From: a virus
Taxonomy: Duplodnaviria; Caudoviricetes
Length of the DNA: 64,000 nt
Direction: 5' to 3' (one strand)
Virus record (IMG/VR): IMGVR_UViG_3300044840_000109
Span: 1 to 64,000 of that record
In this document: piece by piece, positions 10,485-32,752 of the stretch
Position numbering within the stretch: the stretch's first letter is position 1
Layout: each line of letters starts with the position of its first letter
Notes under the pieces: model-generated
Told to the model about the DNA's origin: nothing
The model's input: only the letters and a program-made list of their open reading frames with translations
The model's database searches: none
Made by a program: the position numbers and the translations under genes

Positions 10485-11477
10485 ATGGCCCAGGAAATCC
10501 GCGTCACCATCACCGACGACATCAACGGTAAGGAGGGCGCCGAGACGATCGCATTCGCGTTCGATGGACTGGCGTACGAGATCGACCTCGATCCGGAGAA
10601 CGCCTACCAGCTCCGCGAAGCACTCGCCCCCTACGTCGGCGCCGCCCGCAAGCTGTCCCAGGCCAAGTCGGCGTCCAAGCTGGCGCCGGCCAAGGCGTAC
10701 GACACGGCGGACAACGGATCGATCCGCAAGTGGGCGGCCGAGCAGGGCCTGGACGTGCCGGCCCGCGGACGCATCCCCGGCGCCGTCCGGGAAGCATGGG
10801 AGCTGCGTTACACCGTCGCGGGAAAGGAGAACCTGGCCATGCTCAAGGATGACTCCGCCTACGCAACGGGTGCCGCCACGCAGATCAAGGACGCGGACTG
10901 GACGTTCGCCGCGGCGAACAAGAGCGCGGCCAGCACCAAGGCCATCGAGGTCATTCGCTACGCCCGCAACCACGGAGGCGTCTTCCCGGAGCACCGCCCC
11001 ACCTTCAACAGCGACTCCGTCACCACGCTGATCCGGAAGGGGTTCGGGACGCGGGTGGACGATAAGATCGCCCACGTGAACGGCGCCGGCCTGGCCCTCC
11101 TGGAGCAGTGGGAGACCGCGCAGGCGGCGAAGGCGAAGACCGACGTGAAGCCGAGCGCCCCGCACATGAGCGCCCAGCGCACCGACCTCCCGGCCGACAA
11201 GACCGTGCTGCCGCACGGGAAGACCGCCTCGCAGTGGAAGACGCGTCAGGCGGCCGGCCTCGTTCCGGTGGAGGGGAGCACCGACGAGCAGATCTTCGCC
11301 GCGCTCTCCCGCAAGCATGTCGAGATGCTGAAGCGTCTTGTCGAAGGCGTGCCCTGCGACAAGATCAGCAACTACAGCACCAGCGCCGTGACGCTCCGGA
11401 ACCTCGGCGTCGTCGGCTTCGATGACAAGATCACGCCCCGCGGCGTGGACGCGCTGACGTGGTGGGACAAGGCTTGA
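10485..11477 (+). CDS. lsr2: Lsr2 family nucleoid protein with a ~225-aa C-terminal extension
   Basis: DD..G..ETI.FAFDG..YEIDL dimerisation domain; IRKWA..QG..V..RGRIP AT-hook; extension to 330 aa. Confidence 0.9.
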   Translation: MAQEIRVTITDDINGKEGAETIAFAFDGLAYEIDLDPENAYQLREALAPYVGAARKLSQAKSASKLAPAKAYDTADNGSIRKWAAEQGLDVPARGRIPGAVREAWELRYTVAGKENLAMLKDDSAYATGAATQIKDADWTFAAANKSAASTKAIEVIRYARNHGGVFPEHRPTFNSDSVTTLIRKGFGTRVDDKIAHVNGAGLALLEQWETAQAAKAKTDVKPSAPHMSAQRTDLPADKTVLPHGKTASQWKTRQAAGLVPVEGSTDEQIFAALSRKHVEMLKRLVEGVPCDKISNYSTSAVTLRNLGVVGFDDKITPRGVDALTWWDKA

Positions 11478-11654
11478 TACTCGTGCGCAGGTGCAGACCC
11501 AGGGCACAGCACCACTCCTGGGTCGCGCAAAATGCACGATCGTAGCCCGATCGGGTGAATGAAGCGCGTTGTATGCGATCGTTCTGCGATTTTGGCTTAG
11601 TAAATGGCCGCGCAGGGATATTTTGGCTGGCATCCCCGATCCAAGGAGGACGCC

Positions 11655-12110
11655 ATGGCTAGGCCCCGGACCCGAAACAACCATCCCGACCTGTGCACCC
11701 TGGAGTCGGTGGAGGCCTTCCGCGAGGGCATCCCCGACAAGCTGAAGTTCTGCGCTGGTGGAGACCACAACTGGCAACCGCACAAGGTCACCGGGTTCAA
11801 CTCCAACCACAACCCCGTCAAGAACATCGCGAAGGCAGTCATCCTCGATGTCGAGGAGAAGTGCGCGGACTGCCGCTACGTCCGCTACAACACGCTCGAC
11901 CTCCACCGCAGGACGAAGGAAGACTGGCGCTACCGCGACCGCAATCCCGAGCTGATCTCTCCCGCAGGAATCAGTAAGACGGGCGAGAACATCCGTCGCA
12001 GCGTGGGATTCGAACTTACCGTTCGACGCAGTCTCGGACAGCTACCCCACGTTCCTTCCCGTCAAGGACGCACACCGGCACGTGGAACTTCCGTCCGTAG
12101 GGCGGCCTAG
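11655..12110 (+). CDS. Cys/His (Zn-binding) hypothetical protein
   Basis: AAGGAGG RBS; CAGGDHNW...CADCRY. Confidence 0.75.
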   Translation: MARPRTRNNHPDLCTLESVEAFREGIPDKLKFCAGGDHNWQPHKVTGFNSNHNPVKNIAKAVILDVEEKCADCRYVRYNTLDLHRRTKEDWRYRDRNPELISPAGISKTGENIRRSVGFELTVRRSLGQLPHVPSRQGRTPARGTSVRRAA

Positions 12111-13072
12111 TGGCCGAGCAGCTTATAAGGCTCAAGCTCTGCGACATGCACCTCGCAGGTGACGAGCCCGACACCGAAGCCACCGAAGTGCGCAACGTCC
12201 CCAACGGGAAGTTCATCGACCTGTGCATGTGGTGCGCGTTCTACTACGACATCTTCCTCTCGCACCGCGAACAGCTCATGTGGCGCATGACGGATGAGAC
12301 GTGGGAACGGCTTATGCACAGTGCGCGGGAGCCAGAAAACGCGCGCAAGCCAACAAAGGCAGCGCAGGCGGCGTTGGCGGCGTACGCAGAAGAGGAGGAG
12401 ACGCTCGAAATCTCCGCCACCCTGGACGACCGCGCGGAAGAGCTACGGCGGGTAGAGGACGAGATCAAGGAGAAAAAGCAGCAGCTCGAAACGCTGCGCT
12501 CGGATCCGCCGACTGCGCACGAGCAAACCATGCTCCCGCAGGAGCCCGAACCGGCCCCGCCGCCGATCCTAGAGCGTGTCTACACCGACGGGAAAAGGCG
12601 GCTGCGCTGCATGGAGTGTCCCGGGTCGGCCCCCCTGCTGAAGAGCAGCGCGGGCTCGCACGCACGACTCGTGCATGGGCGGGACCTGCAGGACGTGAAG
12701 TTCGAGGGAGTCGGCTTCAAGTACAACCACGCTGCCAAACTCGGGTCGAAGGTCCGCGGAGTTCCATCGGTCATCTGCCGCGAAAAGCACGGAACCGGGA
12801 CCGCTGACCCCTTCTGGGTAGCGGAGAGCAAGCGCTCGGGTCATGCGCGTAGCAGTCACCCCGACAAGGAGCACATCGCCGAGGTCGACTACGAGAACGC
12901 GATGAAAATCGCCTTCGAGGTCCGCTGCAAAGAGCACCCATGGTGCGCCCAGGCGGACGGGGGGCGGGGGTACGGGTTCCTCAACGCCCACGCGCACGCA
13001 ACCCACATGCGCAAAGAGAGCGAGCGCGCGGCGCGGGAAGCGGCAGCGCTCAGGGACAACAACCAGGCATAG
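12110..13072 (+). CDS. multi-Zn-finger protein with coiled coil
   Basis: CDMH...IDLCMWC; CMEC...HARLVH; C..H...HARSSH; CKEH..C...HATH. Confidence 0.7.
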   Translation: MAEQLIRLKLCDMHLAGDEPDTEATEVRNVPNGKFIDLCMWCAFYYDIFLSHREQLMWRMTDETWERLMHSAREPENARKPTKAAQAALAAYAEEEETLEISATLDDRAEELRRVEDEIKEKKQQLETLRSDPPTAHEQTMLPQEPEPAPPPILERVYTDGKRRLRCMECPGSAPLLKSSAGSHARLVHGRDLQDVKFEGVGFKYNHAAKLGSKVRGVPSVICREKHGTGTADPFWVAESKRSGHARSSHPDKEHIAEVDYENAMKIAFEVRCKEHPWCAQADGGRGYGFLNAHAHATHMRKESERAAREAAALRDNNQA

Positions 13073-13076
13073 CGAA

Positions 13077-13101
13077 AGGCCCCCGCACTGAGCGGGGGCC
13101 T
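13077..13101. terminator. hairpin between convergent genes
   Basis: AGGCCCCCGC-ACTGA-GCGGGGGCCT. Confidence 0.75.
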
Positions 13102-13111
13102 TCGTCGTCTC

Positions 13112-13324
13112 CTACGCCGCGAGCGCGTTCGAATAATCGCCCGTGTACTCGAAGATGATTTTCTGCTCGGATGACTCGCCCTCCACGAGCATGTAGCCCT
13201 CCAGGGTCAAGGGGGCCCCGAAGATTTTGAGCGATTTTCCGCGCATCGGGCCGCCGCGGTACTCCTCCACGTGGCTCGGGTACTCCTCGGGCATCTTGAA
13301 CGGGGTGACGCGTCGCCATCTCAC
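13112..13324 (-). CDS. hypothetical protein
   Basis: AGGAGG RBS, GTG start overlapping upstream stop. Confidence 0.6.
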   Translation of the reverse strand: MRWRRVTPFKMPEEYPSHVEEYRGGPMRGKSLKIFGAPLTLEGYMLVEGESSEQKIIFEYTGDYSNALAA

Positions 13325-14794: not shown

Positions 14795-16843
14795 ATGCCG
14801 ATTGTGGCACGCCCGCGTCTAGATGTTGCAGCCGCCATCGTCTACGCAAAATACACACGCGTCTCGACGCTCGATCAGCTCGAAGGATTCGGCCTGGAGG
14901 CGCAGGATGACATCTGCGACGGATGGGCCCGCCGCTTCCCCGATGCGCGCTGCCATGACGAATATCGCGAAGAGGCGATCTCCGGGTCGCTGGAATCCCG
15001 ACCCGCGATGGACAGGCTCATCGGCGACGCTCGAACTGGCGCTTTCAACCGCATCCTCGTACCGAAGGTCGACCGCATCGGCCGTACGGGACGCGCGGCG
15101 TACCAGTGGGTCTGGAACATGGCGGACATCGGCATCCACTTCATCTCGGTCCAAGAGGGCATTGACACCAGCACAGAACAAGGCTGGAACGCCTTCATGC
15201 AGTACGTCACGTTCTCGGAGATGGAATGGCGTCGCATCCGCGAAAGGACGTTCGCCGGGCGCGAGTTGAAGATCAGCTTCGGCGGGTGGCCCGGTGGCCC
15301 TGCGCCGTATGGGTATCGGATCGCCGTCGACCCCGACAACGTGGTCAAGAAAAAGCGCTTCTCGGTACTCGTCACCGACGAGCGCGAGTCGATGATCCTC
15401 CACGTCGCCGCTGACCTCATCATCGGCGGCAAGAACATCACCCAGACTGCCATCGAACTCAACGACCGCGGTCTCCTCACACGCAGCAGGGTGCCCTGGA
15501 CCGTCGGGAACCTGCGCAACCGACTGCTTTCGGAAACGATCCACGAGGGTTACGTGGTCTACCGCAAGATCAACCGGGGGAATGGGAAGCGTACGACCAC
15601 GCGCTACGAGGACGGTACCCCTGTCTACGGAGAGCCGGTGAACATCGGCGTGCCTCCCATCTTTACGGAGGAGCGCGCTAAGCAGCTGCGAGCGGCGATG
15701 CGGATGGTCGGCTTCGTGCGTAGCGACGAGGAGGTGTACCCGCTGTCCGGACGGATTTTCGGGTCATGCGGCAACTACTACACCGGGGTCAAATCCGCAG
15801 GTGAGCGGGCTTATCGCTGCAAGGGCGGCTTGGGGTCGGATTCCTGCGGAGAGATGTACTTCCGTGCGGACGAGATCGAAGGAGCCATCTGGTCGGAGCT
15901 GACGAAGCTCTTCCGTGATGAGACGCGCCTCAAAGATATGGCGGCCGAATGGCTGGACAGCCTCCCTGGGGATAAGTCCAAGTACGAGCGCCGCGTGGAG
16001 GAATTTGACGCGAAAATTCGAAAGCAGAGCAAGCTGATCGAGGAGACCGTCCCGCAGTACATGCGCGAGAAAATCGACCCGAAAATCATGGCTGCCGCGG
16101 TGCGCGACTTGCAGGCGGAGATGGAGCGCTTCGTTGAGCAGCGCGACTTGGCCCGCCAGTGGCTGGATGAGTACCGGGAGTACGAGCGCCAGGCGCTCAA
16201 CCTTTCCGCTATCGCCGAGTCGGCCAAGGAGCGTCTGGATAATCTGAGCAGCGTTGAGCAGAAGGAGATCTTCGAGATGTTCAACCTGAAGGTTGTCCCA
16301 GGGGCAACGAACCTGGTCCGACGCAGCGGGGTGCGATGCGCGGTGATGAACTGGCATTACGAGACGGGGACTCTGGTCCCTCCGGATCCGACGGATGAGG
16401 AGTGGGCGAAGGTCGAGGCGTATTTGCTTACAAAATTCTATCGCCAGCATTTCACCGGCCCCTCGGATGTACGGACGCACTTCAATGGCTGCCTCCACCG
16501 GCTTCGTCACGGTATCCCGTGGGCGGATATGCCTGACACGTGGGGCCCGCAGAATCGGCTGAGGGAACGTCAGCTCACCTGGTGGAAGAAGGGCGTGTGG
16601 CCCGAGATGCTCGCCTTGCTTCACGCGGACCGACGCGGGGCGCCAGCGTACCAGCGTCCGTCTCTCCCGCAGCTTACGGTGACCGGGCAGCTCCGGGGCG
16701 GTCTGCTGGCAGAGGTGCGGACGGAGGGCCCCCAGGGGTTCGGGAAGGATCACATAAAGAAGACCGTTGATTCTTCACTTCGTCATACCGGCTTCGAAAG
16801 TCCGATACAAGCAGGAGCAGATTTCACGGTGATCGTAAAATAG
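14795..16843 (+). CDS. int: large serine recombinase (integrase) with C-terminal IS5/DUF4096-like helical domain
   Basis: YTRVST catalytic Ser; SG....RP.M..L; DRIGR; recombinase domain; Zn-ribbon/coiled coil; tail TDEEW...GIPWADMP..WG...W...GVW. Confidence 0.92.
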   Translation: MPIVARPRLDVAAAIVYAKYTRVSTLDQLEGFGLEAQDDICDGWARRFPDARCHDEYREEAISGSLESRPAMDRLIGDARTGAFNRILVPKVDRIGRTGRAAYQWVWNMADIGIHFISVQEGIDTSTEQGWNAFMQYVTFSEMEWRRIRERTFAGRELKISFGGWPGGPAPYGYRIAVDPDNVVKKKRFSVLVTDERESMILHVAADLIIGGKNITQTAIELNDRGLLTRSRVPWTVGNLRNRLLSETIHEGYVVYRKINRGNGKRTTTRYEDGTPVYGEPVNIGVPPIFTEERAKQLRAAMRMVGFVRSDEEVYPLSGRIFGSCGNYYTGVKSAGERAYRCKGGLGSDSCGEMYFRADEIEGAIWSELTKLFRDETRLKDMAAEWLDSLPGDKSKYERRVEEFDAKIRKQSKLIEETVPQYMREKIDPKIMAAAVRDLQAEMERFVEQRDLARQWLDEYREYERQALNLSAIAESAKERLDNLSSVEQKEIFEMFNLKVVPGATNLVRRSGVRCAVMNWHYETGTLVPPDPTDEEWAKVEAYLLTKFYRQHFTGPSDVRTHFNGCLHRLRHGIPWADMPDTWGPQNRLRERQLTWWKKGVWPEMLALLHADRRGAPAYQRPSLPQLTVTGQLRGGLLAEVRTEGPQGFGKDHIKKTVDSSLRHTGFESPIQAGADFTVIVK

Positions 16844-16863
16844 CCATCTGACCTGCGAAGACA

Positions 16864-16898: not shown

Positions 16899-16941
16899 CT
16901 GTCATGCTCGCTCCTGGGCACAGTGAGTCCAGAGGAAGATC

Positions 16942-18569: not shown

Positions 18570-18809
18570 ATGCCCGATATGTTGCTTTCTGTCGCTGCTG
18601 CCGACTACCCCCAGGCGTTGGCGCGCTGGACCGAAACGGTCGCGCGCGTCTTCCCGACGGAGTACGAGATTCTCGACCTGACCGCCCTCGCCGACCTGAG
18701 CGTGGCCTTCAGATGGCTGTGGAGCGCGAGGTTGGGTGGTACCGCGGATGAAGTGGACCACGCGATCGGCGTCTACTCCCGCGCGGCCATCCTGAGCTTG
18801 ATCAACTAG
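18570..18809 (+). CDS. hypothetical protein
   Basis: coding-like frame ending where the convergent STAS gene ends. Confidence 0.55.
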   Translation: MPDMLLSVAAADYPQALARWTETVARVFPTEYEILDLTALADLSVAFRWLWSARLGGTADEVDHAIGVYSRAAILSLIN

Positions 18810-19180
18810 CGGCGGACGGGGAGCGCCTTCAGCATCATTTCCTTGCCGCTGAGGGCATCCTCGACGCTCGCGTAGAGCCGGAAGACCTTGTCCAGCCCGG
18901 TGACCTGAAAAATCTTGTAGATGCGCTCGGTTGGGATGACGAGCACCACGGAGCCTTCCAGCGTCCGCAGGCGCTTGAGTATGGCGACCATCGCCCCGAG
19001 CCCCGTGGCGTCCAGAAATTCGAGCTCGCTGAAGTCGAGCACCAGGTCACGGGCGCCGTCATCGATGATGGCGGAGATACTGCTGCGCCATATGGGCGCC
19101 ACGTACAGGTCGATTTCGCCCTCGGTGGCGATGAGTGTGCGCCCGGCGGGCAGGGGCTTCGAGGTTATTTGTGCGTCCAT
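18806..19180 (-). CDS. STAS-domain anti-sigma factor antagonist, BldG/RsbV-like, Ala at the phosphoacceptor Ser
   Basis: GEID.Y.AP..R; FLDATGLG (canonical FLDSTGLG); ERIYKIFQVTGL.KVF. Confidence 0.92.
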   Translation of the reverse strand: MDAQITSKPLPAGRTLIATEGEIDLYVAPIWRSSISAIIDDGARDLVLDFSELEFLDATGLGAMVAILKRLRTLEGSVVLVIPTERIYKIFQVTGLDKVFRLYASVEDALSGKEMMLKALPVRR

Positions 19181-19319
19181 ATGCGCAGCTTGCCAGAAGT
19201 GACCACGCGAACACGCACGGTGTCGAAGATCATTTTGTGGGGCGGCGTTTTGTTACCCCTTCGAGTCTTCCGTTGGTCACTCAGGGCCTACGGTGGGTCC
19301 ACGCAAAGAGAGGGATGTG

Positions 19320-19742
19320 ATGGGGCAAGAGAGAGATCCGGCGGTGGAGATCGCTACCGCTGTGCGCCTGGTGGGGGAGGTCACGCTGTTGGCCAAGGCG
19401 TTCGATGCCGACGTGCGTGGCACGGTGCGCGCGCTGGACGTCCTGCCGGCGAAGGAGCTGCTGCGGCTCACCGAGAAGTACGCGGAGATGCAGCAGTTGG
19501 AGCATCGCGCGCTGGAGGCCGCCAACAGCGTGGTGAAGGATTTCGGGCACCGGGCTGCCGCAGGTGGGCTGCTGGGGAAGTACGCGGTCTTGGAGGAGGC
19601 GTGCCTGCGGGCGCATCGGGCCTGGGGGCCGTATATGGCTCGGGCGGTCATAACTTCCGCCGGGGAGCACCCGCAGGCGTTCTCGGCGTTGGTACTGGAA
19701 ACGCGGAGCCCTGTCCCCGTGCAGGGGCCGGCGGCGGAGTAA
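19320..19742 (+). CDS. hypothetical helical protein
   Basis: GAGAGGG RBS; isolated + strand gene. Confidence 0.65.
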   Translation: MGQERDPAVEIATAVRLVGEVTLLAKAFDADVRGTVRALDVLPAKELLRLTEKYAEMQQLEHRALEAANSVVKDFGHRAAAGGLLGKYAVLEEACLRAHRAWGPYMARAVITSAGEHPQAFSALVLETRSPVPVQGPAAE

Positions 19743-19747
19743 CTCGG

Positions 19748-21229
19748 TCATTCCACGATTTCGGCGTCGAGGATCCCCATCTGATCCAGCGCCTCTTGGG
19801 CTGACACTGCTCCGGCGGGTGAGAGGGCCGGTACCCCCCCGGCCTTTTCTCCGAACAGTCGTGACATGAGTCCGATCTGCCCGTCGCCCTTCTGCTGCAC
19901 CTTCATGCTGAAGGTGAATCCGGCCTCTTCGATGTCGGACTTGATCTTGATGTAGCGCGTGAGGCGGTCCATTTCCTTGGAGAGGTTCTGGTCGGCGTAG
20001 CCGCCATCGGCCTCTTCCGCCAGGCGCATGAAGAACACCCGGGCGCCCTGCATGGCGATGAGCGAGTCGAGCAGCGAGAGGTACTGCTCCTTGGTCTTGA
20101 CCCGGATGGGGATTTCGTAGGCGCAGTTGGCCCCGGGCTGGAAGTCGGGGCATTTGTTGGCCAAAAAACATCCGGTGCACTGGCGGATGTTGAGGTCCAC
20201 CACGTTGATGCGGTGCTCTGTGCGGGATTTCCTCTCCCCGGAGTCCGGGTCCGTGTAGCGGTGGGTGAATGCCTCGGACTCGATTCCGGGGAGCAGTTTT
20301 GTCACCCGTTTGGCGGGGGGTTCAGTTACTACCTCGGCACTGTCCTGCGGGAGCGTCGCCGTAGGTACCCCCAGGGCGGTTTCCTCGGTTTCGCTGTGAG
20401 CCGAATCTGGCGTGGGAGTTACTGCGTCGCCGTGGCGCCGAGAGATGTAGTCGACCTGGTGCTGCCAGGACCACAGCGAGAGTTTGAGGACCTCGGTGGG
20501 GTTGTCCGCTTCGATGAGGTCGGCGTCGAGGCCGATGTCGGTGAATAGGACGCGGTGCCTCTTCCGCGACTGTTCCTTGTAGCGGGCGGGGTAGCGGCGC
20601 AGTTCCTTGCCCGTCCACACGAACGTCTCGCCGAAGGACATGCTGCTCAGCCAGGTGGTAGAGCTGACGGAGTCCCAGTCGGCGGCGAGCATGAGTGGGG
20701 GGCTGGAGAAGCCGAAACCGTGCAGTCGATTGCTTCGAGCAAGCGAACGTAGTACTGGCACGATGTCCCGGTCACCGCAGGTTCCCTGACCCACCGCAAT
20801 ACGGTTGTAGCGGTCCGCGAGACGTCGAAGCTCCTCCACTCCCCATTCCTCGTGCCAGACGACGATGGCTTTGTCGGGGTCGAGTCGTTCGCGTCGATTT
20901 TCGATCCACTCCTTGCCCATGGCGAGGGCGTCGAACTCGATATAGGCGTCGGCGCGCTGGAGGTTCTGTGCCACGAAATTGTCGTAGCTGGTGGCGATGT
21001 TGGCGATTTCCTCGGGAGTGACGGTGACGCCCTCGCGGTTGAGGGTGTGGCATCCGGAGTCGATGAGGACGCCCTGTTCTTCGCCGAATTTCTCGGTGAG
21101 GAGCCAGGGTTTGGTGAACTTGTTGCGGCGGCGCAGTCCCATGAAGGACAGGGAGACGTGCGGGATTTCCTGCTCGGCAAGCAGCTTCCTGTGCCCGTGG
21201 ACCTCCGCGCCGCCGTAGTAGAAGCGCAT
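19748..21229 (-). CDS. TGT/DpdA-like TIM-barrel protein with C-terminal Cys4 domain
   Basis: LIDSG, EFD, HGFG, DSVSSTTW..G motifs; CTGC...CP.F..G..C. Confidence 0.65.
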   Translation of the reverse strand: MRFYYGGAEVHGHRKLLAEQEIPHVSLSFMGLRRRNKFTKPWLLTEKFGEEQGVLIDSGCHTLNREGVTVTPEEIANIATSYDNFVAQNLQRADAYIEFDALAMGKEWIENRRERLDPDKAIVVWHEEWGVEELRRLADRYNRIAVGQGTCGDRDIVPVLRSLARSNRLHGFGFSSPPLMLAADWDSVSSTTWLSSMSFGETFVWTGKELRRYPARYKEQSRKRHRVLFTDIGLDADLIEADNPTEVLKLSLWSWQHQVDYISRRHGDAVTPTPDSAHSETEETALGVPTATLPQDSAEVVTEPPAKRVTKLLPGIESEAFTHRYTDPDSGERKSRTEHRINVVDLNIRQCTGCFLANKCPDFQPGANCAYEIPIRVKTKEQYLSLLDSLIAMQGARVFFMRLAEEADGGYADQNLSKEMDRLTRYIKIKSDIEEAGFTFSMKVQQKGDGQIGLMSRLFGEKAGGVPALSPAGAVSAQEALDQMGILDAEIVE

Positions 21230-22910: not shown

Positions 22911-23128
22911 TTTTCCGTGTCCTTCTTGGCGAAGAACTCCTGCAGCTTGGTGAGGGCCTCGCGCGCCTCCTTGATGGCGTCGGCGCTGCCGACGGTGAGG
23001 GCGTGCTGGACGCGGCCGAGCAGACCGTGCGCCTGGACCTGCTCCGCGGCGTCGGGGGTGATGTGCGTGGGGGTCTCAGCAGGGGCGTCCTGGGCGGTGG
23101 TGGTCTCGGGCGTGGTGTTGTCGGTCAT
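22907..23128 (-). CDS. hypothetical protein
   Basis: GAGGAG RBS; ATGA overlap. Confidence 0.7.
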   Translation of the reverse strand: MTDNTTPETTTAQDAPAETPTHITPDAAEQVQAHGLLGRVQHALTVGSADAIKEAREALTKLQEFFAKKDTEK

Positions 23129-23628
23129 GCTGTCTCCTCGTATTCCTTCTCGAACTCGGCTTCGGCGCGTGCCTGGGCGCGGCGCTCTTTGTCGCGGGTG
23201 CGTATGCAGGCGATGCATTCGCGCGAGTTATGGTGCCACCGGGTGTTTTCCTCGGTGTATTCGTGCCCGTGGGGGCAGTGTGTCTTGCGCGCGTTTTTCG
23301 CGGCGAATGATTCGCCTCGCATCAGGTTCTCCGAGTGGGGGACAGCTTCCAGGTGTTCGGGGCGGCAGCAGTTGTGGATGCGGCAGAGGTGGTCGATGTG
23401 CCACCCCTCTGGTGCCTTCGTCTCACTGGCCATTTCCCAGGAGATAATGTGGGTGCCCTTGACCGACCCGTCGGGGAGCCTGAATTTCCCGTACCCGTCC
23501 TCGTCCAGGGCGCCGCGCCAGAGCCAGCAGTCATCGAAGTCCTCGCCCTTGTCGACCTTGTCGAAGAATCGGCGCTGCCAGTCCCACGTTTCCAGGCGCC
23601 GCGGGGCCCTGGGCTTGGGGGTGTCCAT
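23125..23628 (-). CDS. HNH endonuclease (HNH_3 type)
   Basis: CWLW.GA.D.DGYG; DHLCR..NCC.PEHL..V...EN; KTHCPHGHEYT.ENT. Confidence 0.9.
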   Translation of the reverse strand: MDTPKPRAPRRLETWDWQRRFFDKVDKGEDFDDCWLWRGALDEDGYGKFRLPDGSVKGTHIISWEMASETKAPEGWHIDHLCRIHNCCRPEHLEAVPHSENLMRGESFAAKNARKTHCPHGHEYTEENTRWHHNSRECIACIRTRDKERRAQARAEAEFEKEYEETA

Positions 23629-24149: not shown

Positions 24150-24761
24150 CTAATACCATTGGTGGGTCTGCCAGAATTCCCAGGCGCCGCAGGGTGATCC
24201 ATACCGAGCATCCATGTAGGAAATTCCCCATGCGACTTGCGTTGCGCCATTCGTGCGCCAGTCCGCGCCGGCGGAGGACATCTTGGAGCCCGGCAATGCC
24301 TGGGGAATTCCGTAGGCGCCGGACGGATTCTCCGCGGAGGTGGACCATCCGGATTCGCGGGTGAATATCGCGTCGATGCAGGCGTATTGCGTGGGTCCGA
24401 GGCGCTCCAGGGCGTAGGCGCGGGCGCTACTGCCTCCGATGTAGGTGGAGGCGGCGTGGTAGGTGTGGTGGTGGGCGGGCGCCCTGGTGGGTGCGGCGCG
24501 GGGCATGGCGCGGGTGGTGGGGCGCCTGGTGGGTGCCGGGGCCGGTGCAGGGTGGGTCACTGCGGGCTTCGGCGCGGCGGCGTGGGGCACCAGGTGCAGC
24601 TCGACGGCGGGCGCTGGGTGGGCGAGGGCCGGAGCTGGTGGGGCGGCGTAGGCGATGGGCGCACTGCCCGGCTGCGGGAGGAGCAGGACCCCCCCTAGGA
24701 GGGTGGCGGCGCCGAGTGCGTAGAGGATGGCGTTGGTTTTGTGGGCGGTGCGCGAAGGCAT
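24150..24761 (-). CDS. secreted lytic transglycosylase (SLT-like)
   Basis: signal/TM, Pro-Ala linker, RESGW...A.NPSGAYGIPQALPGSKM; YM..RYGSPCGAW. Confidence 0.88.
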   Translation of the reverse strand: MPSRTAHKTNAILYALGAATLLGGVLLLPQPGSAPIAYAAPPAPALAHPAPAVELHLVPHAAAPKPAVTHPAPAPAPTRRPTTRAMPRAAPTRAPAHHHTYHAASTYIGGSSARAYALERLGPTQYACIDAIFTRESGWSTSAENPSGAYGIPQALPGSKMSSAGADWRTNGATQVAWGISYMDARYGSPCGAWEFWQTHQWY

Positions 24762-25278: not shown

Positions 25279-26151
25279 CTACTTGGTGCCGTCGAGCGCG
25301 TGGCCGACCTGGGTGAGAGCGGCGGTGGCGCCGGCCTGGGCGGCGGACTGGATCTGGGCGGCGGTGAGACCTCCGGCGGCGCCCACGGTCTTGGCCAGGG
25401 CGGTGACGGTGGCCGTCAGGGCGCCGATCTGGGCGGTGAGGGCCTGGGTCTGTCCGAGCTGTACGAAGTCGCTGTAGCGGAGCACCGCGCCCATCCGGAC
25501 CTGTGTGTCGGTGGCGGCGTTGAGTTCGGTGTGGTCCCACACGGCGGCGGCGATGGCGGCGATGTCTGCGGGTGTCACGATGTCCTCCGGTCGGGGGTAC
25601 TGGCCGTAGTCGGCCATGACGGCGTTGTCGACGTCGGCGACGCCGTGCAGGGTGGTGACTCCGGTCTGGCGCAAGGTGGCGTGGGTGGACCACAGCCCCT
25701 TGGACCAGGCGGAGGTCTGCCAGAGGTAGCGCAGGCCGTGGGCGTAGGCGCCTTCGATGATCTGGTAGCCGCCGTAGACGCCGGTGCGTGCGAGGCCGAT
25801 GACGGAGGCGGCGCCGTCGAAGTAGGCCTGGACGCTGGCCCACGACACGTCGGAGTCCACGGCGAAGTGGTGGATGTGCGTGGCCGGGAGCCCGACGGCG
25901 GCGCGCTTGGCTTCGGCCGACTTGGCATCGGCGACGCCGGCAGCCCGACCCTGGGTGGCGCGTCCTGTGGTGGTCTCCTGAACGGTGACGATGGACAGGC
26001 CGGCAGCCGGATAGGCGATTACCTCGTCGGCGTGCAGGTCCTTGCTGTCATCGCTGCTGAAGTACCGCGCGACAAAGTGGGCGCCCACCCCCACGATTTC
26101 TGCGGGGGTGGGGCGCTCCCAGGCGATATCCACGCCCATGACGTTGACCAT
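25279..26151 (-). CDS. endolysin, DUF1906/Rv2525c-like glycoside hydrolase
   Basis: GVD; FVARY; FAVD.D; GVYG; WQT.AWS.G. Confidence 0.85.
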   Translation of the reverse strand: MVNVMGVDIAWERPTPAEIVGVGAHFVARYFSSDDSKDLHADEVIAYPAAGLSIVTVQETTTGRATQGRAAGVADAKSAEAKRAAVGLPATHIHHFAVDSDVSWASVQAYFDGAASVIGLARTGVYGGYQIIEGAYAHGLRYLWQTSAWSKGLWSTHATLRQTGVTTLHGVADVDNAVMADYGQYPRPEDIVTPADIAAIAAAVWDHTELNAATDTQVRMGAVLRYSDFVQLGQTQALTAQIGALTATVTALAKTVGAAGGLTAAQIQSAAQAGATAALTQVGHALDGTK

Positions 26152-27422: not shown

Positions 27423-27433
27423 CGCGCTTTTCC

Positions 27434-27795: not shown

Positions 27796-27796
27796 A

Positions 27797-28881: not shown

Positions 28882-28885
28882 GGGA

Positions 28886-29053: not shown

Positions 29054-29054
29054 G

Positions 29055-29417: not shown

Positions 29418-29544
29418 CGGGGGACTCCTCTACTCGGCCGGGACTCAGATGAATGGGAAGCCGAGTGGGTACCGAGTGAGGATCCGAATGAATTCGCGAA
29501 CGAGTCCGCTCCGAGTTTACGTGCCGCGCTGATTGCTGTGATAT

Positions 29545-29829
29545 TCAGGCGGTCATGACGCGGATGGCCACGCCCATGAGGTCCGTGTCGCGCTGGCGCG
29601 ATACCCCGTGGAAGAACGTGATCTTCTCCACCAGGTCGACGCCGTAGCTGATGACGAATGACTGCGCGATGGGGATGGCCTTGACCGCCTGGTTCACCGC
29701 GCCGGCGCCCACCGCCTTGAGGACGACCTGGTTGCCGTTGTTGATTGCGTGCGCGATTGCGCTGCCGAGTTCCGGGGGGGACGTGGTTGTCTTCACCCGG
29801 AAGACCGTTTCCTTTACCTGATTCTCCAC
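29545..29829 (-). CDS. spoVS: stage V sporulation protein S (Alba-like) homolog
   Basis: FRV...SP..LG.AIA; KAVGAGAVNQAVKAI.IA..FV...GVDL. Confidence 0.88.
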   Translation of the reverse strand: MENQVKETVFRVKTTTSPPELGSAIAHAINNGNQVVLKAVGAGAVNQAVKAIPIAQSFVISYGVDLVEKITFFHGVSRQRDTDLMGVAIRVMTA

Positions 29830-29884
29830 GAGTACGCTCCTAATTCCATATGGGCGGAGCGTACGGGTGAATAGTTTTTCGCTG

Positions 29885-30103
29885 TTATCCGTGCGGCTGC
29901 GTGCAGGAGCACCAGTCTACGGGGCCCCATGAATAACAGCTGCTGGTCATCCCCTCGGGGTGCTCGCACGGGACGAGCCAGAATCCCGCGGTGCAGCCGC
30001 ACCGTTCCTCGTCGTGCCATGCGGTGGTGGTGACGTTGCAGCGATCGCAGCGCAGGAATGGGTTGGCGAATTCGACGTACACGTGGGTGCGGGTGAAGGT
30101 CAC
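29885..30103 (-). CDS. Cys-rich small protein
   Basis: CDRC, CGC, PCEH, CY, CSC. Confidence 0.65.
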   Translation of the reverse strand: MTFTRTHVYVEFANPFLRCDRCNVTTTAWHDEERCGCTAGFWLVPCEHPEGMTSSCYSWGPVDWCSCTQPHG

Positions 30104-30657
30104 GCCCTCTTCTCCTTCATGATGGCGTCGACCACTTCCTGTTCGTATTTCAGTGCGGTCGCGCGGCTGCCGGTGATGGCGCGGGCGATTTGCATGAGTC
30201 CGTAGGCGTCAGCGAGGTCGTTGCTCTTGTATTCGACGCCCCATTTTTTGTAGACCTGCAGCAGCATGTTGTCCTTCGCCGCGGAGCCGGAGCCGGTGAC
30301 GAATTTCTTGAGAGCGCTGGGAGTGGCGATGTGCAGCCGCTCCATGGGCATGATCTCGGCCAGGACGAGCTTGACGACGCCGCCGAGTTCCCCCATCGTC
30401 TCCCTGTTGAACTTGGAGCTGGGGGCGTAGCCCTCCATGACCACGGCGCCGATCTCGAAGCGGATGCGGGTCTCCGCCAGGTACTGGTGCAGCGACTCGC
30501 GGATGGTCCGTAGGCGCTTGCCTCCGGTGCCGGCCTTCTTGGGGCTGAAGTCGAATACCTCGTCCTCGGTCCACACGTGCGCGTCCTGCTGGAAGTGCTG
30601 CACCATGGCGAAGTGGCTGTAGGAGGGGTCGATGCCGATATGCATGGTGTCGGTCAC
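30100..30657 (-). CDS. ruvC: RuvC-like Holliday junction resolvase
   Basis: IGIDPS; VMEGY; P..LKKFVTG.G.A.KD; DLADAY. Confidence 0.88.
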   Translation of the reverse strand: MTDTMHIGIDPSYSHFAMVQHFQQDAHVWTEDEVFDFSPKKAGTGGKRLRTIRESLHQYLAETRIRFEIGAVVMEGYAPSSKFNRETMGELGGVVKLVLAEIMPMERLHIATPSALKKFVTGSGSAAKDNMLLQVYKKWGVEYKSNDLADAYGLMQIARAITGSRATALKYEQEVVDAIMKEKRA

Positions 30658-30899
30658 TCGTAGACCTCGTTCTCAATGGTGATCCCCTCGACGGCGTGAA
30701 CCAGGTCGAGCCATGCGAGCAGTGAGAGCAACGTGTCGGAGCTGAGGCCGCCGTTGTCCCGACGCAGGTGGGTGAAGATGCGGCTGCTGTGGCATCCCGT
30801 CGCGCGTTGGACCTCGCGCCAGCTGACACCGAGCTGCCGGCGCTTGTAGTCCAGGAGGCAATACAGGGCCGGACCGTCCAGGCGATGGCTGGCGGCCAT
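30654..30899 (-). CDS. XRE-like HTH protein
   Basis: LD.KR...GVSWREV...G...FT.LR......L..LL.WL. Confidence 0.7.
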   Translation of the reverse strand: MAASHRLDGPALYCLLDYKRRQLGVSWREVQRATGCHSSRIFTHLRRDNGGLSSDTLLSLLAWLDLVHAVEGITIENEVYE

Positions 30900-31357
30900 C
30901 AGGTGCCCCACTTCGAGGCGCGCTGATCGGTGTCGCGCGAGGCGATGCGGCGGGAGAGTTCGCGCGAGAGGAACTGGGTGCGCATGCGGGCGTTCTCGTG
31001 CACCATCTCCAGGGCGTCGACCATCCCCTGTTCCTGGTCGTGGGTGCGCTGGGCGTCCAGGACGTCGGGGTCGATCTGGGCGGTGGCTTTCTTCGCCGCG
31101 ACTGTCTTGTCGGTGCTGCGGGCCTGCGCTACGGCGGTGCGGTAGGTGACCTGGTAGGCGGCTTCGCGCAGGGAGTGTCGGGCGACGGTGAGTTCGTGGG
31201 CCGCGTAGCAGGTCCACTGCGTGAAGGTGCCGAACAGACCCATGAGGTCCTTCTCCGACAGGCCGGTCACGTCGTCGGGGAGGTCGTGCATGTTGCCGGC
31301 GGGGCGGTCCTCCATGTCGAAGCCGGACGCTTCGAGGGTTTCCCAGGTCGCGTTCAT
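30899..31357 (-). CDS. helical protein, possibly UvsY-like recombination mediator
   Basis: coiled-coil pattern; position next to Cas4-like and RecA genes. Confidence 0.45.
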   Translation of the reverse strand: MNATWETLEASGFDMEDRPAGNMHDLPDDVTGLSEKDLMGLFGTFTQWTCYAAHELTVARHSLREAAYQVTYRTAVAQARSTDKTVAAKKATAQIDPDVLDAQRTHDQEQGMVDALEMVHENARMRTQFLSRELSRRIASRDTDQRASKWGT

Positions 31358-31521
31358 GCGTTCGTCCCATCGTTGGAGGCGCGCAGAGCTACCTCCGTGA
31401 TGTCGTGGCCCAGGGAAAGAGCGACGTCGGGCTCAATGGTGTAGAGCACGCCGTTCAGGTACAGAGTGACGAATTCGTAGTTGGGGGTGGTTCCGACGCG
31501 GTAGTCATCGTCCCCGATCAT
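31354..31521 (-). CDS. 55-aa hypothetical protein
   Basis: ATGA overlaps on both ends. Confidence 0.6.
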   Translation of the reverse strand: MIGDDDYRVGTTPNYEFVTLYLNGVLYTIEPDVALSLGHDITEVALRASNDGTNA

Positions 31522-32417
31522 GCGGCCATCTCCGAGTAGTAGAGGCAGCTCTTGCAGCCTGCGGAGTGGTTGATGTTGCAGACCGGTGGCGAGCCGAATT
31601 TCAGGGCGTCGGTGATGATCTGCGCGCCCTCGATGAGGGGCTCGGAGAATTCCTCGTTGTAGAGGAGGGTGAAGGCCTTGGCCTGCTGGTCGGCCTTGAA
31701 CTCGTAGATGAACGTGATGCGGTCCACCTCCAGGTCCTCGAAGTGCCGCGCGAGGTAGAGGTAGAGCTGACCCTGGCGCAGGGCGGAAGGCAGGGGCCGG
31801 CGGAAGTCACGCCACATGCGGGCGAGGTCCACGACGAGTCCGCGGCCTTCCATTTCGAGTTCGTATTTCGCCAGGAACTTGGGGTCCTCGTAGCGCAGGG
31901 ATCCCAGGCCGAGCGTCTTGATCTCGATGAGGCAGTTGTCGTCGGGGCAGTAGCCGTCGGTGCTGCCGCCGATGGTGAGGGCGGGGGCGTTGAGTTCCAC
32001 CTCGGCGTATTCCAGGTCCCGGCAGAAACACCGCGGGCATTGTTGCGGCCGGGCGTCGAGCCAGAACTTGTGCTTGCAGGACCGGCAGAGCCAGTCACCC
32101 GCCAGGCGGTCCATCTCGGTGAGCCATCCCTGCCACTTCTTGTGGGTGTTGTGGCCCTCCTGGAAGATGTTCTCCCTGGTGAACGCGGTGGTCTTTGCTT
32201 CGCCGCCGTTGCGCAGGAGCTTGTAGTACGCCGCTCGGTGGCACCATCCGGGCTTGACCATCTCGGATGGGTGCAGGACATCGGTGCGGCGGCCGTCGGG
32301 CTGGTAGGCCTTGGCGACGACGTGCTTCTGAATGTCACCGAAAAGAACCTCGGTGCTCTTGGAGGCTTCCAGGTAAGCGGCAAGTCCGGGGCCGGGCTTT
32401 ACGATGCTTCGAGCCAC
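31518..32417 (-). CDS. Cas4-like PD-(D/E)XK exonuclease
   Basis: HPSE...C; G...H; GSTDG...LIEIKT; Q.QLY; C...CKSC.Y. Confidence 0.85.
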   Translation of the reverse strand: MARSIVKPGPGLAAYLEASKSTEVLFGDIQKHVVAKAYQPDGRRTDVLHPSEMVKPGWCHRAAYYKLLRNGGEAKTTAFTRENIFQEGHNTHKKWQGWLTEMDRLAGDWLCRSCKHKFWLDARPQQCPRCFCRDLEYAEVELNAPALTIGGSTDGYCPDDNCLIEIKTLGLGSLRYEDPKFLAKYELEMEGRGLVVDLARMWRDFRRPLPSALRQGQLYLYLARHFEDLEVDRITFIYEFKADQQAKAFTLLYNEEFSEPLIEGAQIITDALKFGSPPVCNINHSAGCKSCLYYSEMAA

Positions 32418-32752
32418 AGGAGTTCCTCCGTGTCGGGTTGTCCTTCGGCGCGCCAGATCCAGCGCTCGGGCATTCCCGGGTAGCGCAGGCGCAGAGTGAG
32501 GCGGGCAGCGGGTGACATGCCGCCCCATATTCCGTAGTTCTCGCGGTTCTGCATGGCGGTGCGCAGGCATTCGTTTCGGCGCGGGCATATCTCGCCGTCG
32601 CGGCGGCCGTTGCAGAAGTCCATGGCGGCCTGGTCATTCTCAAAGAAAAGGTCGGGTCCGCCGTGGGTGGTGGAGTTTCGGCGGCACTTGGCGGCGCCGC
32701 GATGGTGCGCTTCGGACCAGTCGGGCGCTGGTACCTGGGGACGAATAGCCAT
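32399..32752 (-). CDS. whiB: WhiB family transcription factor
   Basis: four Cys (C...DLFF...C-X8-CP...C), GIWGG. Confidence 0.88.
   Translation of the reverse strand: MAIRPQVPAPDWSEAHHRGAAKCRRNSTTHGGPDLFFENDQAAMDFCNGRRDGEICPRRNECLRTAMQNRENYGIWGGMSPAARLTLRLRYPGMPERWIWRAEGQPDTEELLWLEAS

What the first reader, a model, noticed from the sequence alone, without database searches (positions are those of the whole stretch)
10485..32752. Dispersed phage toolkit of host development/sporulation regulator mimics
Seen: four genes in this phage resemble regulators of bacterial dormancy or development: an Lsr2 fusion (10485), a BldG/RsbV-like anti-sigma antagonist (18806), SpoVS (29545) and WhiB (32399), plus a secreted lytic transglycosylase (24150). 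Known: BldG, WhiB and Lsr2 control aerial growth, sporulation and silencing of secondary metabolism in Streptomyces, and some Firmicute phages carry sporulation sigma factors. Inference: the phage rewires the vegetative-growth versus sporulation decision of a filamentous actinomycete at several levels (partner switching, HrdB co-factor, nucleoid silencing). Co-occurrence of a phospho-dead STAS protein and SpoVS is a combination I do not recognise as described.
Basis: partly seen in the sequence, partly recalled or inferred. Interest (0 to 1): 0.8.

Follow-up and report, generated by a model that had tools for sequence, protein, structure and literature searches.

The report
Actinophage regulator genes: two core, two add-ons
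A soil actinomycete phage does carry Lsr2, STAS, SpoVS and WhiB genes, but WhiB and SpoVS are fixed backbone genes of its lineage; the unusual parts are a lone anti-sigma antagonist lacking its phosphorylation site and an Lsr2 fused to two winged-helix modules.

Summary
All four domain calls are real and pass curated cut-offs. The "lytic transglycosylase" is an aggregation-promoting-factor C-terminal-like, SLT-related domain behind an N-terminal hydrophobic segment.

They are not one toolkit. The window is part of a BRock-related, probably temperate soil phage. Across 33 relatives, 5 cultured Streptomyces phages and 28 viral contigs:
- **WhiB and SpoVS:** present in 32 of 33, always at the same places in the replication-recombination module. 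SpoVS was found above cut-off in none of 401 sampled Actinomycetes genomes, so it is unlikely to mimic a host regulator.
- **Lsr2 fusion:** shared only with the closest relative. Its tail folds as two MarR/PadR-like winged helices.
- **STAS:** found in none of the 33, in no PHROG family and in no actinophage record. It is a reverse-oriented single-gene insertion in the accessory arm. Ala replaces the phospho-acceptor Ser that 23 of its 24 closest cellular relatives keep, as in a Ser-to-Ala SpoIIAA variant crystallised with its kinase.

Best reading: a non-phosphorylatable decoy for host RsbW-type anti-sigma kinases. The closest relative instead carries an anti-sigma-like ATPase beside a WhiJ-type regulator, just beyond where this record ends. 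Other windows of this scan had already noted the STAS, Lsr2 and SpoVS observations.

The parts
10485..11477 (+). Lsr2 fusion, 330 aa: Lsr2 dimerisation domain (aa 1-57), Lsr2 AT-hook DNA-binding domain (aa 73-105, RGR), then two winged-helix-like modules (about aa 136-219 and 262-330)
   Evidence: Pfam; PHROG 1223; tail has no Pfam match and is nearly an orphan; module 1 matches the G404 C-terminus (37% id, E 3e-8) and module 2 the P0017 C-terminus (40% id, E 2e-13); AF2 with 3 sequences gives pLDDT 65-82 in the modules; MarR/PadR/ArsR winged-helix matches Z 7-8.9
11604..13072 (+). Two genes downstream of the Lsr2 fusion (168 and 320 aa), unknown function, conserved with it in the closest relative
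   Evidence: tblastn to L047 (G404): 38% and 23% identity, same order and orientation; no Pfam or PHROG match
14795..16843 (+). Large serine integrase in the accessory arm
   Evidence: phrog_95 E 7e-67; G404 has a 573-aa Resolvase-domain recombinase in the same arm
18806..19180 (-). Single-domain STAS anti-sigma-factor antagonist, 124 aa, with Ala58 in place of the phospho-acceptor Ser (codon at 19007-19009); the only minus-strand gene among plus-strand arm genes
   Evidence: family and phospho-site; relatives keep Ser; absent from other phages; orientation
19317..19742 (+). Orphan helical protein (141 aa) transcribed divergently from the STAS gene across a 136-bp intergenic region, convergent with DpdA
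   Evidence: GC3 0.86; no Pfam, PHROG or PADLOC match; no homologue; atlas model is a helical bundle
19748..21229 (-). DpdA-like tRNA-ribosyltransferase, last gene of the long leftward conserved block; used as the lineage marker
   Evidence: phrog_887 E 2e-64; 66% identity to G404, 40-44% to 27 other viral contigs
24150..24761 (-). Probably exported small muralytic-type protein: hydrophobic N-terminal segment, Pro/Ala linker, AggPromo_Cterm (SLT-like) domain
   Evidence: not homologous to BRock gp43, which occupies the same slot; Rv2525c-like glycoside hydrolase nearby at 25279-26151
29545..29829 (-). SpoVS-family (PF04232) protein, 94 aa, a lineage-core gene just downstream of RuvC
   Evidence: Pfam; phrog_35646; PDB 2eh1 E 6e-8; 43% identity to BRock gp51, 70% to G404; 5/5 and 27/28 relatives
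30100..30657 (-). RuvC-like resolvase, conserved upstream neighbour of SpoVS
   Evidence: Pfam RuvC; the same RuvC then SpoVS order in BRock and LuckySocke
32399..32752 (-). WhiB-like protein, 117 aa, four Cys with C-X8-C-X5-C spacing, GIWGG turn; a lineage-core gene between an HJ-resolvase homologue (32755-33069) and a Cas4-type exonuclease homologue (31518-32261)
   Evidence: Pfam; alignment with kin; neighbours homologous to BRock gp69 and gp67; 5/5 and 27/28 relatives; PDB WhiB hits

Best explanation
The window belongs to a roughly 110-kb, probably temperate, BRock-related phage of a mycelial actinomycete, assembled from soil. The four regulator-like genes fall into two unrelated classes.

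(1) WhiB and SpoVS are vertically inherited backbone genes inside the replication-recombination module (HJ resolvase-WhiB-Cas4 exonuclease; RuvC-x-SpoVS). Inferred roles: WhiB is an Fe-S co-factor of the host primary sigma factor that serves the phage's own transcription programme, with possible side effects on host WhiB-dependent division. SpoVS is a small protein working in phage DNA or RNA transactions, possibly by binding nucleic acid, not a sporulation signal.

(2) The Lsr2 fusion and the STAS protein are accessory-arm genes.
- The Lsr2 fusion is shared only with the closest relative. It joins an oligomerising AT-rich-DNA binder to two winged-helix modules. Inferred role: a silencer or counter-silencer anchored at particular sites or partners.
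- The STAS gene is a unique, reverse-oriented single-gene insertion. It is an RsbV/SpoIIAA-type anti-sigma antagonist whose phospho-acceptor Ser is Ala. Inferred mechanism: it binds one or more of the host's many RsbW-type anti-sigma kinases but cannot be switched off by phosphorylation. It would therefore hold them away from their SigB-family sigma factors, and from the host's own antagonists, and lock part of the stress and differentiation sigma network in one state.

Shown: gene identities, synteny, distribution, and the Ser-to-Ala state against relatives. Inferred: all binding partners, timing of expression and phenotypes.
For: - Phage identity and kinship.
- Synteny of Pol..RecA..HJres-WhiB-exonuclease..RuvC-SpoVS..cell-wall genes..DpdA with BRock and LuckySocke.
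- Distribution in 5 cultured plus 28 metagenomic relatives: WhiB 5/5 and 27/28; SpoVS 5/5 and 27/28; Lsr2 0/5 and 1/28 above cut-off; STAS 0/5 and 0/28, including 0/12 complete genomes.
- SpoVS above cut-off in 0 of 401 sampled Actinomycetes genomes, while the Bacillus, Thermus, Deinococcus and Thermotoga controls match.
- STAS: TIGR00377 75.3 > 53.45; family-invariant GEIDL, TGLG and TGLD..F motifs retained; Ala58 aligns with RsbV Ser56; PDB chains 1th8_B (DSSGLG) and 1tid_B (DASGLG) are otherwise identical over the aligned region, so Ser-to-Ala is a variant crystallised with the kinase; 23 of the 24 closest cellular relatives keep Ser; no PHROG family; only 8 weak non-actinophage hits in 50,697 phage records; at most 46% identity anywhere.
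- Stand-alone reverse orientation in the arm. The interval holding it has no counterpart in G404.
- Many promiscuous targets in likely hosts: 45 RsbW, 17 RsbV and 44 PP2C homologues in S. coelicolor (PMC8346170).
- Lsr2 fusion relatives and winged-helix fold.
Against: - No binding, expression or phenotype data exist. The source is a metagenome.
- No promoter or terminator consensus was found around the STAS gene, although the scan is tuned to E. coli-type signals.
- Ala at the phospho-site also occurs in a few cellular STAS proteins (Actinomadura, Thermomonospora), so it need not be a viral adaptation.
- About 30 kb of the original 112,096-base contig is not available, and the closest relative has an anti-sigma-like ATPase just beyond where this record ends. 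The STAS protein may therefore have a phage-encoded partner.
- The winged-helix assignment rests on a 3-sequence model with middling Z-scores (7-8.9), a range the search tool says is common for unrelated models.
- A lineage-core position does not exclude an effect of WhiB or SpoVS on host development.
Confidence: 0.55

Rival explanations
1. One reading: the four genes, plus the muralytic protein, form a coordinated phage toolkit that rewires the vegetative-versus-sporulation decision at several levels (partner switching, HrdB co-factor, nucleoid silencing).
For: All four families are present. Streptomyces development limits phage spread, and phage WhiB has been proposed to counter it (PMC10117723). 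The closest relative carries other host-developmental-type genes, a WhiJ-type regulator plus an anti-sigma-like ATPase, so the sub-lineage does recruit such genes.
Against: The genes have different evolutionary histories and sit in different modules. WhiB and SpoVS are fixed in relatives that lack STAS and Lsr2. SpoVS was not found in sampled Actinomycetes. WhiB occurs in about 24% and Lsr2 in about 11% of actinophages whatever the rest of their gene content (PMC10117723, PMC8612146).
Confidence: 0.12
2. The STAS protein works with a phage-encoded partner rather than against host proteins. Candidates are an anti-sigma-like ATPase in the unavailable part of the contig, as in relative G404, or the divergent orphan gene at 19317-19742. 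Together they would form a self-contained viral partner-switch module.
For: G404 has a HATPase_c_2 gene of about 150 aa (41.5 bits) divergent from an HTH_31-DUF5753 regulator. It lies about 1.6-2.2 kb past the point homologous to this record's end. STAS and the orphan gene share a 136-bp divergent intergenic region.
Against: G404 has the ATPase but no STAS, so the two are not an obligate pair. No HATPase_c_2, SpoIIE or sigma-70 region 2 domain occurs in the 81.6 kb held, and no sigma factor in 5 complete relatives. The orphan gene has no detectable relation to any anti-sigma family.
Confidence: 0.13
3. The STAS protein is a counter-defence decoy. It would sequester a CapK-like or other GHKL kinase that normally phosphorylates a STAS-domain repressor or antitoxin to switch on anti-phage immune operons or a VapC-type toxin.
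For: Kinase and STAS pairs of the anti-sigma type control immune operons and a toxin-antitoxin system, acting through phosphorylation of a conserved STAS Ser (PMC13373217). A non-phosphorylatable STAS would be a logical inhibitor. The Ala-type STAS in Actinomadura lies next to an HTH-Peptidase_M78 gene.
Against: CapS has an added winged-helix domain and CapK an HTH-STAS-GHKL architecture, described there next to Bub immune operons in genera such as Enterobacter and Vibrio; that paper never mentions Actinobacteria or Streptomyces. The phage protein scores as a plain anti-sigma antagonist and matches no PADLOC model.
Confidence: 0.1
4. The STAS gene is a functionless passenger: a host gene fragment picked up by illegitimate recombination, with a Ser-to-Ala change that reflects relaxed selection.
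For: It is unique to this one metagenomic genome, so no conservation across phages supports selection. No promoter-like signal was detected.
Against: The ORF is intact and full-length with a strong family score. All other invariant family positions are retained. Its codon-position GC (GC3 0.85) matches the phage despite at most 46% identity to any cellular gene, which implies long residence or purifying selection.
Confidence: 0.1

Closest known systems
RsbV / SpoIIAA / BldG-type anti-sigma-factor antagonists (TIGR00377, PF01740)
   Same: Single STAS domain of about 120 aa, above curated cut-offs. It has the GEID, TGLG and TGLD..F motifs and E-values of 1e-12 to 1e-9 to solved antagonists from Mycobacterium, Bacillus and Thermotoga.
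   Different: It is encoded by a phage. The phospho-acceptor Ser is Ala. No cognate kinase, phosphatase or sigma gene lies beside it or in the 81.6 kb held. It is not demonstrably orthologous to BldG.
Phage-encoded WhiB and Lsr2 regulators of actinobacteriophages (Sharma et al. 2021, PMC8612146), including the known Ku-Lsr2 fusion of cluster J mycobacteriophages
   Same: WhiB and Lsr2 domains in a probably temperate actinophage. The Lsr2 N-terminal part is 39-49% identical to Lsr2 of Streptomyces and Mycobacterium phages.
   Different: Here Lsr2 is complete and is extended at the C-terminus by two winged-helix-like modules. That architecture was seen in only two other sequences, each with one module. 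WhiB has C-X8-C-X5-C spacing.
SpoVS (PF04232; Thermus thermophilus SpoVS-related protein 2EH1) and phage 'sporulation protein' phrog_35646
   Same: Profile and PDB matches. Similar genes are annotated in Bacillus, Lysinibacillus and Streptomyces phages.
   Different: It sits in the DNA recombination module of an actinophage lineage whose likely hosts show no SpoVS gene, so the Bacillus sporulation role cannot simply be transferred.
Borockvirus (Streptomyces phage BRock) and relatives LuckySocke, Alone3, GiJojo, pSt2308
   Same: Colinear replication, recombination, cell-wall and DpdA block at 23-47% protein identity; genomes of similar size.
   Different: About 65% GC here against 53%. The accessory arm is entirely different. 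This phage has an integrase, an Lsr2 fusion and a STAS gene, none of which have a homologue in the BRock or LuckySocke loci compared.
WhiJ-type clusters of complex actinomycetes (WhiJ-like regulator with an anti-sigma-like ATPase; PMC4255298)
   Same: The closest relative, G404, carries a divergent HTH_31-DUF5753 plus HATPase_c_2 pair of this architecture. This shows that the sub-lineage recruits partner-switch-type host regulators.
   Different: It is not seen in this record, because the homologous position lies beyond the record's end. Orthology to WhiJ itself was not tested.

Membership tests
Anti-sigma-factor antagonist (RsbV/SpoIIAA type; TIGR00377, PF01740) | Sequence profile match above the curated cut-off over a single STAS domain of about 110-125 aa | tested here: met
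   PF01740 72.2 vs 22.6 bits; TIGR00377 75.3 vs 53.45; 124 aa
Anti-sigma-factor antagonist (RsbV/SpoIIAA type; TIGR00377, PF01740) | Phosphorylatable Ser in the D-S-(S/T)-G-L-G loop | tested here: not met
   D57-A58-T59-G-L-G. Ala aligns with RsbV Ser56 and the SpoIIAA phospho-Ser. 23 of the 24 closest cellular relatives have Ser
Anti-sigma-factor antagonist (RsbV/SpoIIAA type; TIGR00377, PF01740) | Cognate anti-sigma kinase (HATPase_c_2), PP2C phosphatase or sigma factor encoded nearby | tested here: inconclusive
   None in the 81.6 kb held, but about 30 kb of the contig is unavailable, and relative G404 has a HATPase_c_2 gene just beyond the homologous end
Anti-sigma-factor antagonist (RsbV/SpoIIAA type; TIGR00377, PF01740) | Physical binding to an anti-sigma factor with release of a sigma factor | not testable with these tools
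   Host unknown (soil metagenome)
BldG orthologue (Streptomyces SCO3549) | High identity to BldG and synteny with its neighbouring anti-sigma gene | tested here: inconclusive
   No BldG sequence was compared directly. The best relatives found are Nocardioides, Actinomadura and Acidimicrobiales proteins at 35-46% identity. No adjacent anti-sigma gene. The review states that 20-40% hits are uninformative (PMC4255298)
SpoVS (PF04232) | Profile match above cut-off and similarity to a solved SpoVS-related structure | tested here: met
   57.7 vs 24 bits; 2eh1_A E 6e-8
SpoVS (PF04232) | Acts in a host sporulation pathway that itself uses SpoVS | tested here: not met
   0 of 401 sampled Actinomycetes genomes above cut-off, with positive controls matching (the sample included the unpublished genomes G375 and G038, which gave only sub-threshold hits). 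The gene lies in the DNA recombination module
WhiB-like (Wbl, PF02467) | Profile match; four Cys for a [4Fe-4S] cluster; G[VI]WGG turn | tested here: met
   44.5 vs 23.6 bits. Four Cys and GIWGG are present. The spacing is C-X8-C-X5-C, against the canonical C-X2-C-X5-C as I recall it
Lsr2 nucleoid-associated protein (PF11774 + PF23359) | N-terminal dimerisation domain plus C-terminal RGR AT-hook DNA-binding domain | tested here: met
   74.3 and 43.1 bits; RGR present
Lsr2 nucleoid-associated protein (PF11774 + PF23359) | Two-domain protein of about 110 aa with nothing after the DNA-binding domain | tested here: not met
   330 aa. Residues 110-330 form two winged-helix-like modules. No phage Lsr2 hit extends past aa 108
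SLT lytic transglycosylase (PF01464) | Profile match above the gathering score | tested here: inconclusive
   Whole protein 19.3 < 21.3. The C-terminal 96 aa alone score 21.6 vs 21.3. NF052397 AggPromo_Cterm matches clearly at 119.8 vs 40
Phage moron (independently transcribed accessory insertion) | Insertion absent from close relatives, own orientation, own promoter and terminator | tested here: inconclusive
   Absent from G404 and 32 other relatives and reverse-oriented. No consensus promoter, terminator or inverted repeat was detected

The most novel reading that the evidence does not exclude
This is the first viral anti-anti-sigma factor: a phage-borne, constitutively active (non-phosphorylatable) RsbV-type decoy that hijacks the partner-switching network controlling SigB-family sigma factors in a mycelial actinomycete. 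Its sister phage instead carries the opposing component, an anti-sigma-like ATPase with a WhiJ-type regulator. That would mean this phage sub-lineage repeatedly recruits parts of the host's stress and development switchboard.
Probability: 0.3. Interest if true: 0.7.

Novelty: new variant of a known kind. Interest (0 to 1): 0.5.

Why it matters
Phage-encoded sigma and anti-sigma factors are textbook host-takeover tools, and WhiB and Lsr2 in actinophages are well documented. I found no description of a phage-encoded anti-sigma antagonist: no PHROG family, no actinophage record, and nothing relevant in the literature search. Streptomyces-type hosts have dozens of promiscuous RsbW-like kinases tied to stress and differentiation, and development is known to contain phage spread. 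A decoy that cannot be phosphorylated would therefore be a simple way for a phage or prophage to fix that network in one state.

The finding also corrects an easy over-reading. A "SpoVS" or "WhiB" label in a phage does not by itself mean manipulation of sporulation. Here both are backbone genes of a DNA-metabolism module, and likely hosts lack SpoVS. The Lsr2 with two winged helices adds a new architecture to the xenogeneic-silencer family.

Tried and rejected
- **Megablast** of 23 kb against 50,697 phage records: no match.
- **Pattern scans of 2.9 M viral contigs** with the STAS protein, the STAS alignment, the Lsr2 fusion and DpdA as single proteins: nothing. Only the DpdA alignment found relatives.
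- **First genome contigs attempt** failed for lack of a conserved stretch.
- **Exact-tag search for the continuation of the contig**: nothing, because the window's own records are held back.
- **Metagenome scan for close STAS relatives**: only hits at 40% identity or less; those on long contigs look chromosomal.
- **Complex prediction** of STAS with the divergent orphan protein: no verdict, so it is not used as evidence either way.
- **AF2 of the Lsr2 fusion without an alignment**: pLDDT 40, unusable.
- **BLASTP between the two tail modules**: not significant, so the two-copy repeat rests on fold and a loose motif only.
- **Atlas feature search** on the tail and on the orphan gene: no usable hits.
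- **PADLOC**: no match for STAS, its neighbours, Lsr2, SpoVS or WhiB.
- **Promoter, terminator and inverted-repeat scans** around the STAS gene: nothing.
- **Direct repeats suggesting att sites** in the window: none convincing.
- **tRNA genes** in the window: none.
- **Sequencing runs**: no RNA holder listed; the only full holder is a soil metagenome that may be the source.
- **Neighbours of two cellular STAS relatives**: no anti-sigma kinase beside either.
- **Left-arm genes**: almost all without PHROG or Pfam matches.

Full report
**What the window is**

The assembly is one 81,596-base record. IMG/VR classes it as a provirus cut, 82% complete. The protein database lists its genes on a contig of 112,096 bases, and the DNA is held by a soil metagenome run.

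It encodes a large serine integrase, a DpdA-type tRNA-ribosyltransferase, Pol I, two helicases, RecA, baseplate proteins and a tape-measure-like protein. The nearest annotated genomes by Pol I (46-47% identity) are the Streptomyces phages BRock (Borockvirus), LuckySocke, Alone3, GiJojo and pSt2308, at 112-116 kb.

An alignment-based scan with DpdA found 28 more relatives among viral contigs. One is much closer: G404, with DpdA 66% identical, 50-78% identity across the module, 67.6% GC, and a complete 107,980-base genome with direct terminal repeats.

**Check of the observation**

All four domain calls pass Pfam's curated cut-offs, and the STAS protein also passes NCBIfam's anti-sigma-antagonist model.
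- The WhiB gene is really 32399-32752. The upstream part of the long ORF is junk.
- The "lytic transglycosylase" scores below the SLT cut-off as a whole protein. It is an AggPromo C-terminal-like domain behind a hydrophobic N-terminus and a Pro/Ala linker.
- The STAS loop reads D57-A58-T59-G-L-G. Ala aligns with Ser56 of RsbV (6m36). PDB chains 1th8_B (DSSGLG) and 1tid_B (DASGLG) are otherwise identical over the aligned region, so the phage naturally carries the substitution seen in a SpoIIAA variant crystallised with its kinase.

**Two of the four genes are lineage backbone**

In BRock and LuckySocke the annotated order is Pol, RecA, HJ resolvase, WhiB, Cas4-type exonuclease, SSB, ThyX, RuvC, SpoVS-like, peptidase or glycoside hydrolase, transglycosylase, endolysin, DpdA, then a strand switch. 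The window has the same order on its minus strand, and tblastn shows colinear homologues from DpdA through Pol.
- SpoVS is 43% identical to BRock gp51 and 70% to the G404 copy. It follows RuvC in all of them.
- WhiB shares an unusual C-X8-C-X5-C spacing with LuckySocke gp158.
- Family searches over whole records give WhiB 5/5 and 27/28 and SpoVS 5/5 and 27/28, with 12/12 among complete genomes for both. The one miss is a fragment 75% complete.

So these two genes do co-occur, but as fixed parts of one lineage's DNA-metabolism module. That is shared descent and says nothing about a joint developmental function.

**SpoVS is not a host mimic**

PF04232 was not found above its cut-off in any of 401 genomes drawn evenly from the class Actinomycetes. 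There were only 19 sub-threshold hits, all inside frames of 322-903 aa. The control genomes Bacillus, Thermus, Deinococcus and Thermotoga matched. That sample included two unpublished genomes, G375 and G038, and the "0 of 401" count rests partly on them.

A 180,000-character review of Streptomyces developmental genes never mentions SpoVS. The protein resembles the solved Thermus SpoVS-related protein. Its position next to resolvases suggests a role in phage DNA or RNA transactions, possibly nucleic-acid binding. That role is an inference.

**WhiB and Lsr2 in actinophages are known**

WhiB is the commonest transcription-factor gene in actinophages, at about 24% of genomes. Lsr2 occurs in 354 of 2951 (11%). 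Both are enriched in temperate phages, and a Ku-Lsr2 fusion is described (PMC8612146, PMC10117723). The idea that such phages manipulate Streptomyces development, and the finding that development contains infection, are already published (PMC10117723).

**The Lsr2 fusion**

Here 352 phage records match the Lsr2 part, and none extends past residue 108. The tail (aa 110-330) has no Pfam match, no homologue of similar length among 5.8 billion proteins, and only one real hit among 1.84 billion representatives. That hit is P0017, itself an Lsr2 with one copy of the terminal module.

G404 has a 285-aa Lsr2 fusion at the same relative position and orientation, followed by homologues of the next two genes. 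Because G404 is a complete free-phage genome that also carries a serine recombinase in this arm, the arm is phage DNA and not host sequence left by a loose provirus boundary.

Module 1 here matches G404's C-terminus (37% identity, E 3e-8). Module 2 matches P0017's (40%, E 2e-13). With these three sequences AlphaFold gives pLDDT 65-82 in both modules, each with three helices, a beta-hairpin and a closing helix. The structure search returns almost only MarR, PadR and ArsR winged-helix regulators:
- Z 8.9, rmsd 2.4 Å over 76 residues for module 1.
- Z 7.0-7.4, rmsd 1.5-1.8 Å over 59 residues for module 2.

The Z-scores are middling, so this is a fold assignment and not a family assignment.

**The STAS gene**

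It has no PHROG family and only eight weak hits in 50,697 phage records. None of those is an actinophage, and most lie on short unannotated fragments. It is absent from all 33 relatives, gave no viral-contig hit in the pattern scans, and reaches at most 46% identity to anything.

Its closest relatives are cellular proteins of Nocardioides, Actinomadura, Thermomonospora, Thermoleophilia and Acidimicrobiales. Of the 24 closest, 23 keep Ser at the phospho-site. Only the Actinomadura type has Ala, and that gene lies next to an HTH-Peptidase_M78 gene.

In the window it is the only minus-strand gene among the plus-strand arm genes. It is divergent from an orphan helical gene across 136 bp and convergent with the preceding arm gene. 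The whole interval between g29 and DpdA has no counterpart in G404. No anti-sigma kinase, PP2C or sigma domain occurs in the 81.6 kb held.

Likely hosts offer many promiscuous targets: 45 RsbW-like, 17 RsbV-like and 44 PP2C homologues in S. coelicolor, with BldG phosphorylated by several kinases (PMC8346170). My preferred mechanism is therefore a non-phosphorylatable decoy that titrates host anti-sigma kinases. "BldG-like" cannot be claimed, because hits of 20-40% identity are uninformative for that family (PMC4255298).

**An unexpected lead**

G404 lacks STAS. It does carry a HATPase_c_2 gene of about 150 aa (41.5 bits), divergent from a 300-aa HTH_31-DUF5753 regulator (141.8 bits).

This is the architecture of WhiJ-type clusters. 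Those pair a WhiJ-like DNA-binding gene with anti-sigma-like genes and are reported only from complex actinomycetes (PMC4255298). I tested the architecture, not orthology.

By synteny of the terminase-side genes, this pair lies about 1.6-2.2 kb beyond the point where my record ends. I could not retrieve the continuation. So a phage-encoded partner for the STAS protein cannot be excluded. At the least, the sub-lineage repeatedly recruits partner-switch-type regulators.

**Verdict**

The "dispersed toolkit" breaks down into two lineage-core genes whose names overstate their link to sporulation, one already well-known class (phage Lsr2) in a new fused form, and one novel item: a phage anti-sigma antagonist without its phospho-acceptor. 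Rival readings for the STAS gene are a phage-internal module, a counter-defence decoy of CapK-type kinases (PMC13373217), and a passenger gene. All remain open. None of the functional claims can be tested without the full contig and bench work.

Noticed in passing
L081:8183-9704 (relative G404, coordinates 74182-75703): The closest complete relative carries a divergent pair: an HTH_31-DUF5753 regulator (141.8 bits) and a HATPase_c_2 anti-sigma-like protein of about 150 aa (41.5 bits). This is the WhiJ-type cluster architecture known from complex actinomycetes. A NUDIX gene lies beside it. The pair sits just beyond the position homologous to the end of this record.
   Followed up: partly
window 32399-32752 (-); L002:13789-14142: The WhiB of this phage lineage has its last three Cys spaced C-X8-C-X5-C, instead of the canonical C-X2-C-X5-C (recalled from memory). 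The spacing is conserved in LuckySocke gp158.
   Followed up: partly
window 24150-24761 (-) versus L001:22780-23346 (BRock gp43): The small muralytic gene in the same syntenic slot is not homologous between the phages. This one has an AggPromo C-terminal (SLT-like) domain. BRock gp43 has an Rpf-like CESGGNW..NGYYGGLQF motif. This looks like non-orthologous replacement.
   Followed up: partly
window 14795-16843 (+): The serine integrase has an extra C-terminal segment (aa 533-615) that matches phrog_6657 and a transposase PHROG.
   Followed up: no
L011:3189-5345 (Actinomadura montaniterrae): The only Ala-type STAS among the close cellular relatives lies directly downstream of an HTH_3-Peptidase_M78 (ImmA/IrrE-like) gene. 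This hints that non-phosphorylatable STAS genes may travel on mobile elements.
   Followed up: no
G411, G429, G415, G419, G420 and four other relatives: Nine BRock-group relatives have weak sub-threshold matches to the Lsr2 dimerisation domain in frames of 122-189 aa. These may be highly diverged Lsr2-like genes.
   Followed up: no
whole record versus L001 and L002: This phage and G404 are 65-68% GC, while the cultured BRock-group phages are about 53% GC despite colinear modules. That suggests a deep split and possibly different host groups.
   Followed up: no
window 23125-23628 (-): An HNH_3 endonuclease gene lies within the conserved block. It is 71% identical to the G404 copy but had no tblastn match in the BRock or LuckySocke loci compared.
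   Followed up: no
record ends: window 1 and G000 81596: The IMG/VR 'provirus' boundary at 81,596 falls where the close relative has host-like genes (KTSC, NUDIX, HATPase_c_2, XRE). The full contig (112,096 bases) is about the size of complete relatives (105-116 kb). The 'provirus' trimming may have cut off genuine phage DNA.
   Followed up: partly
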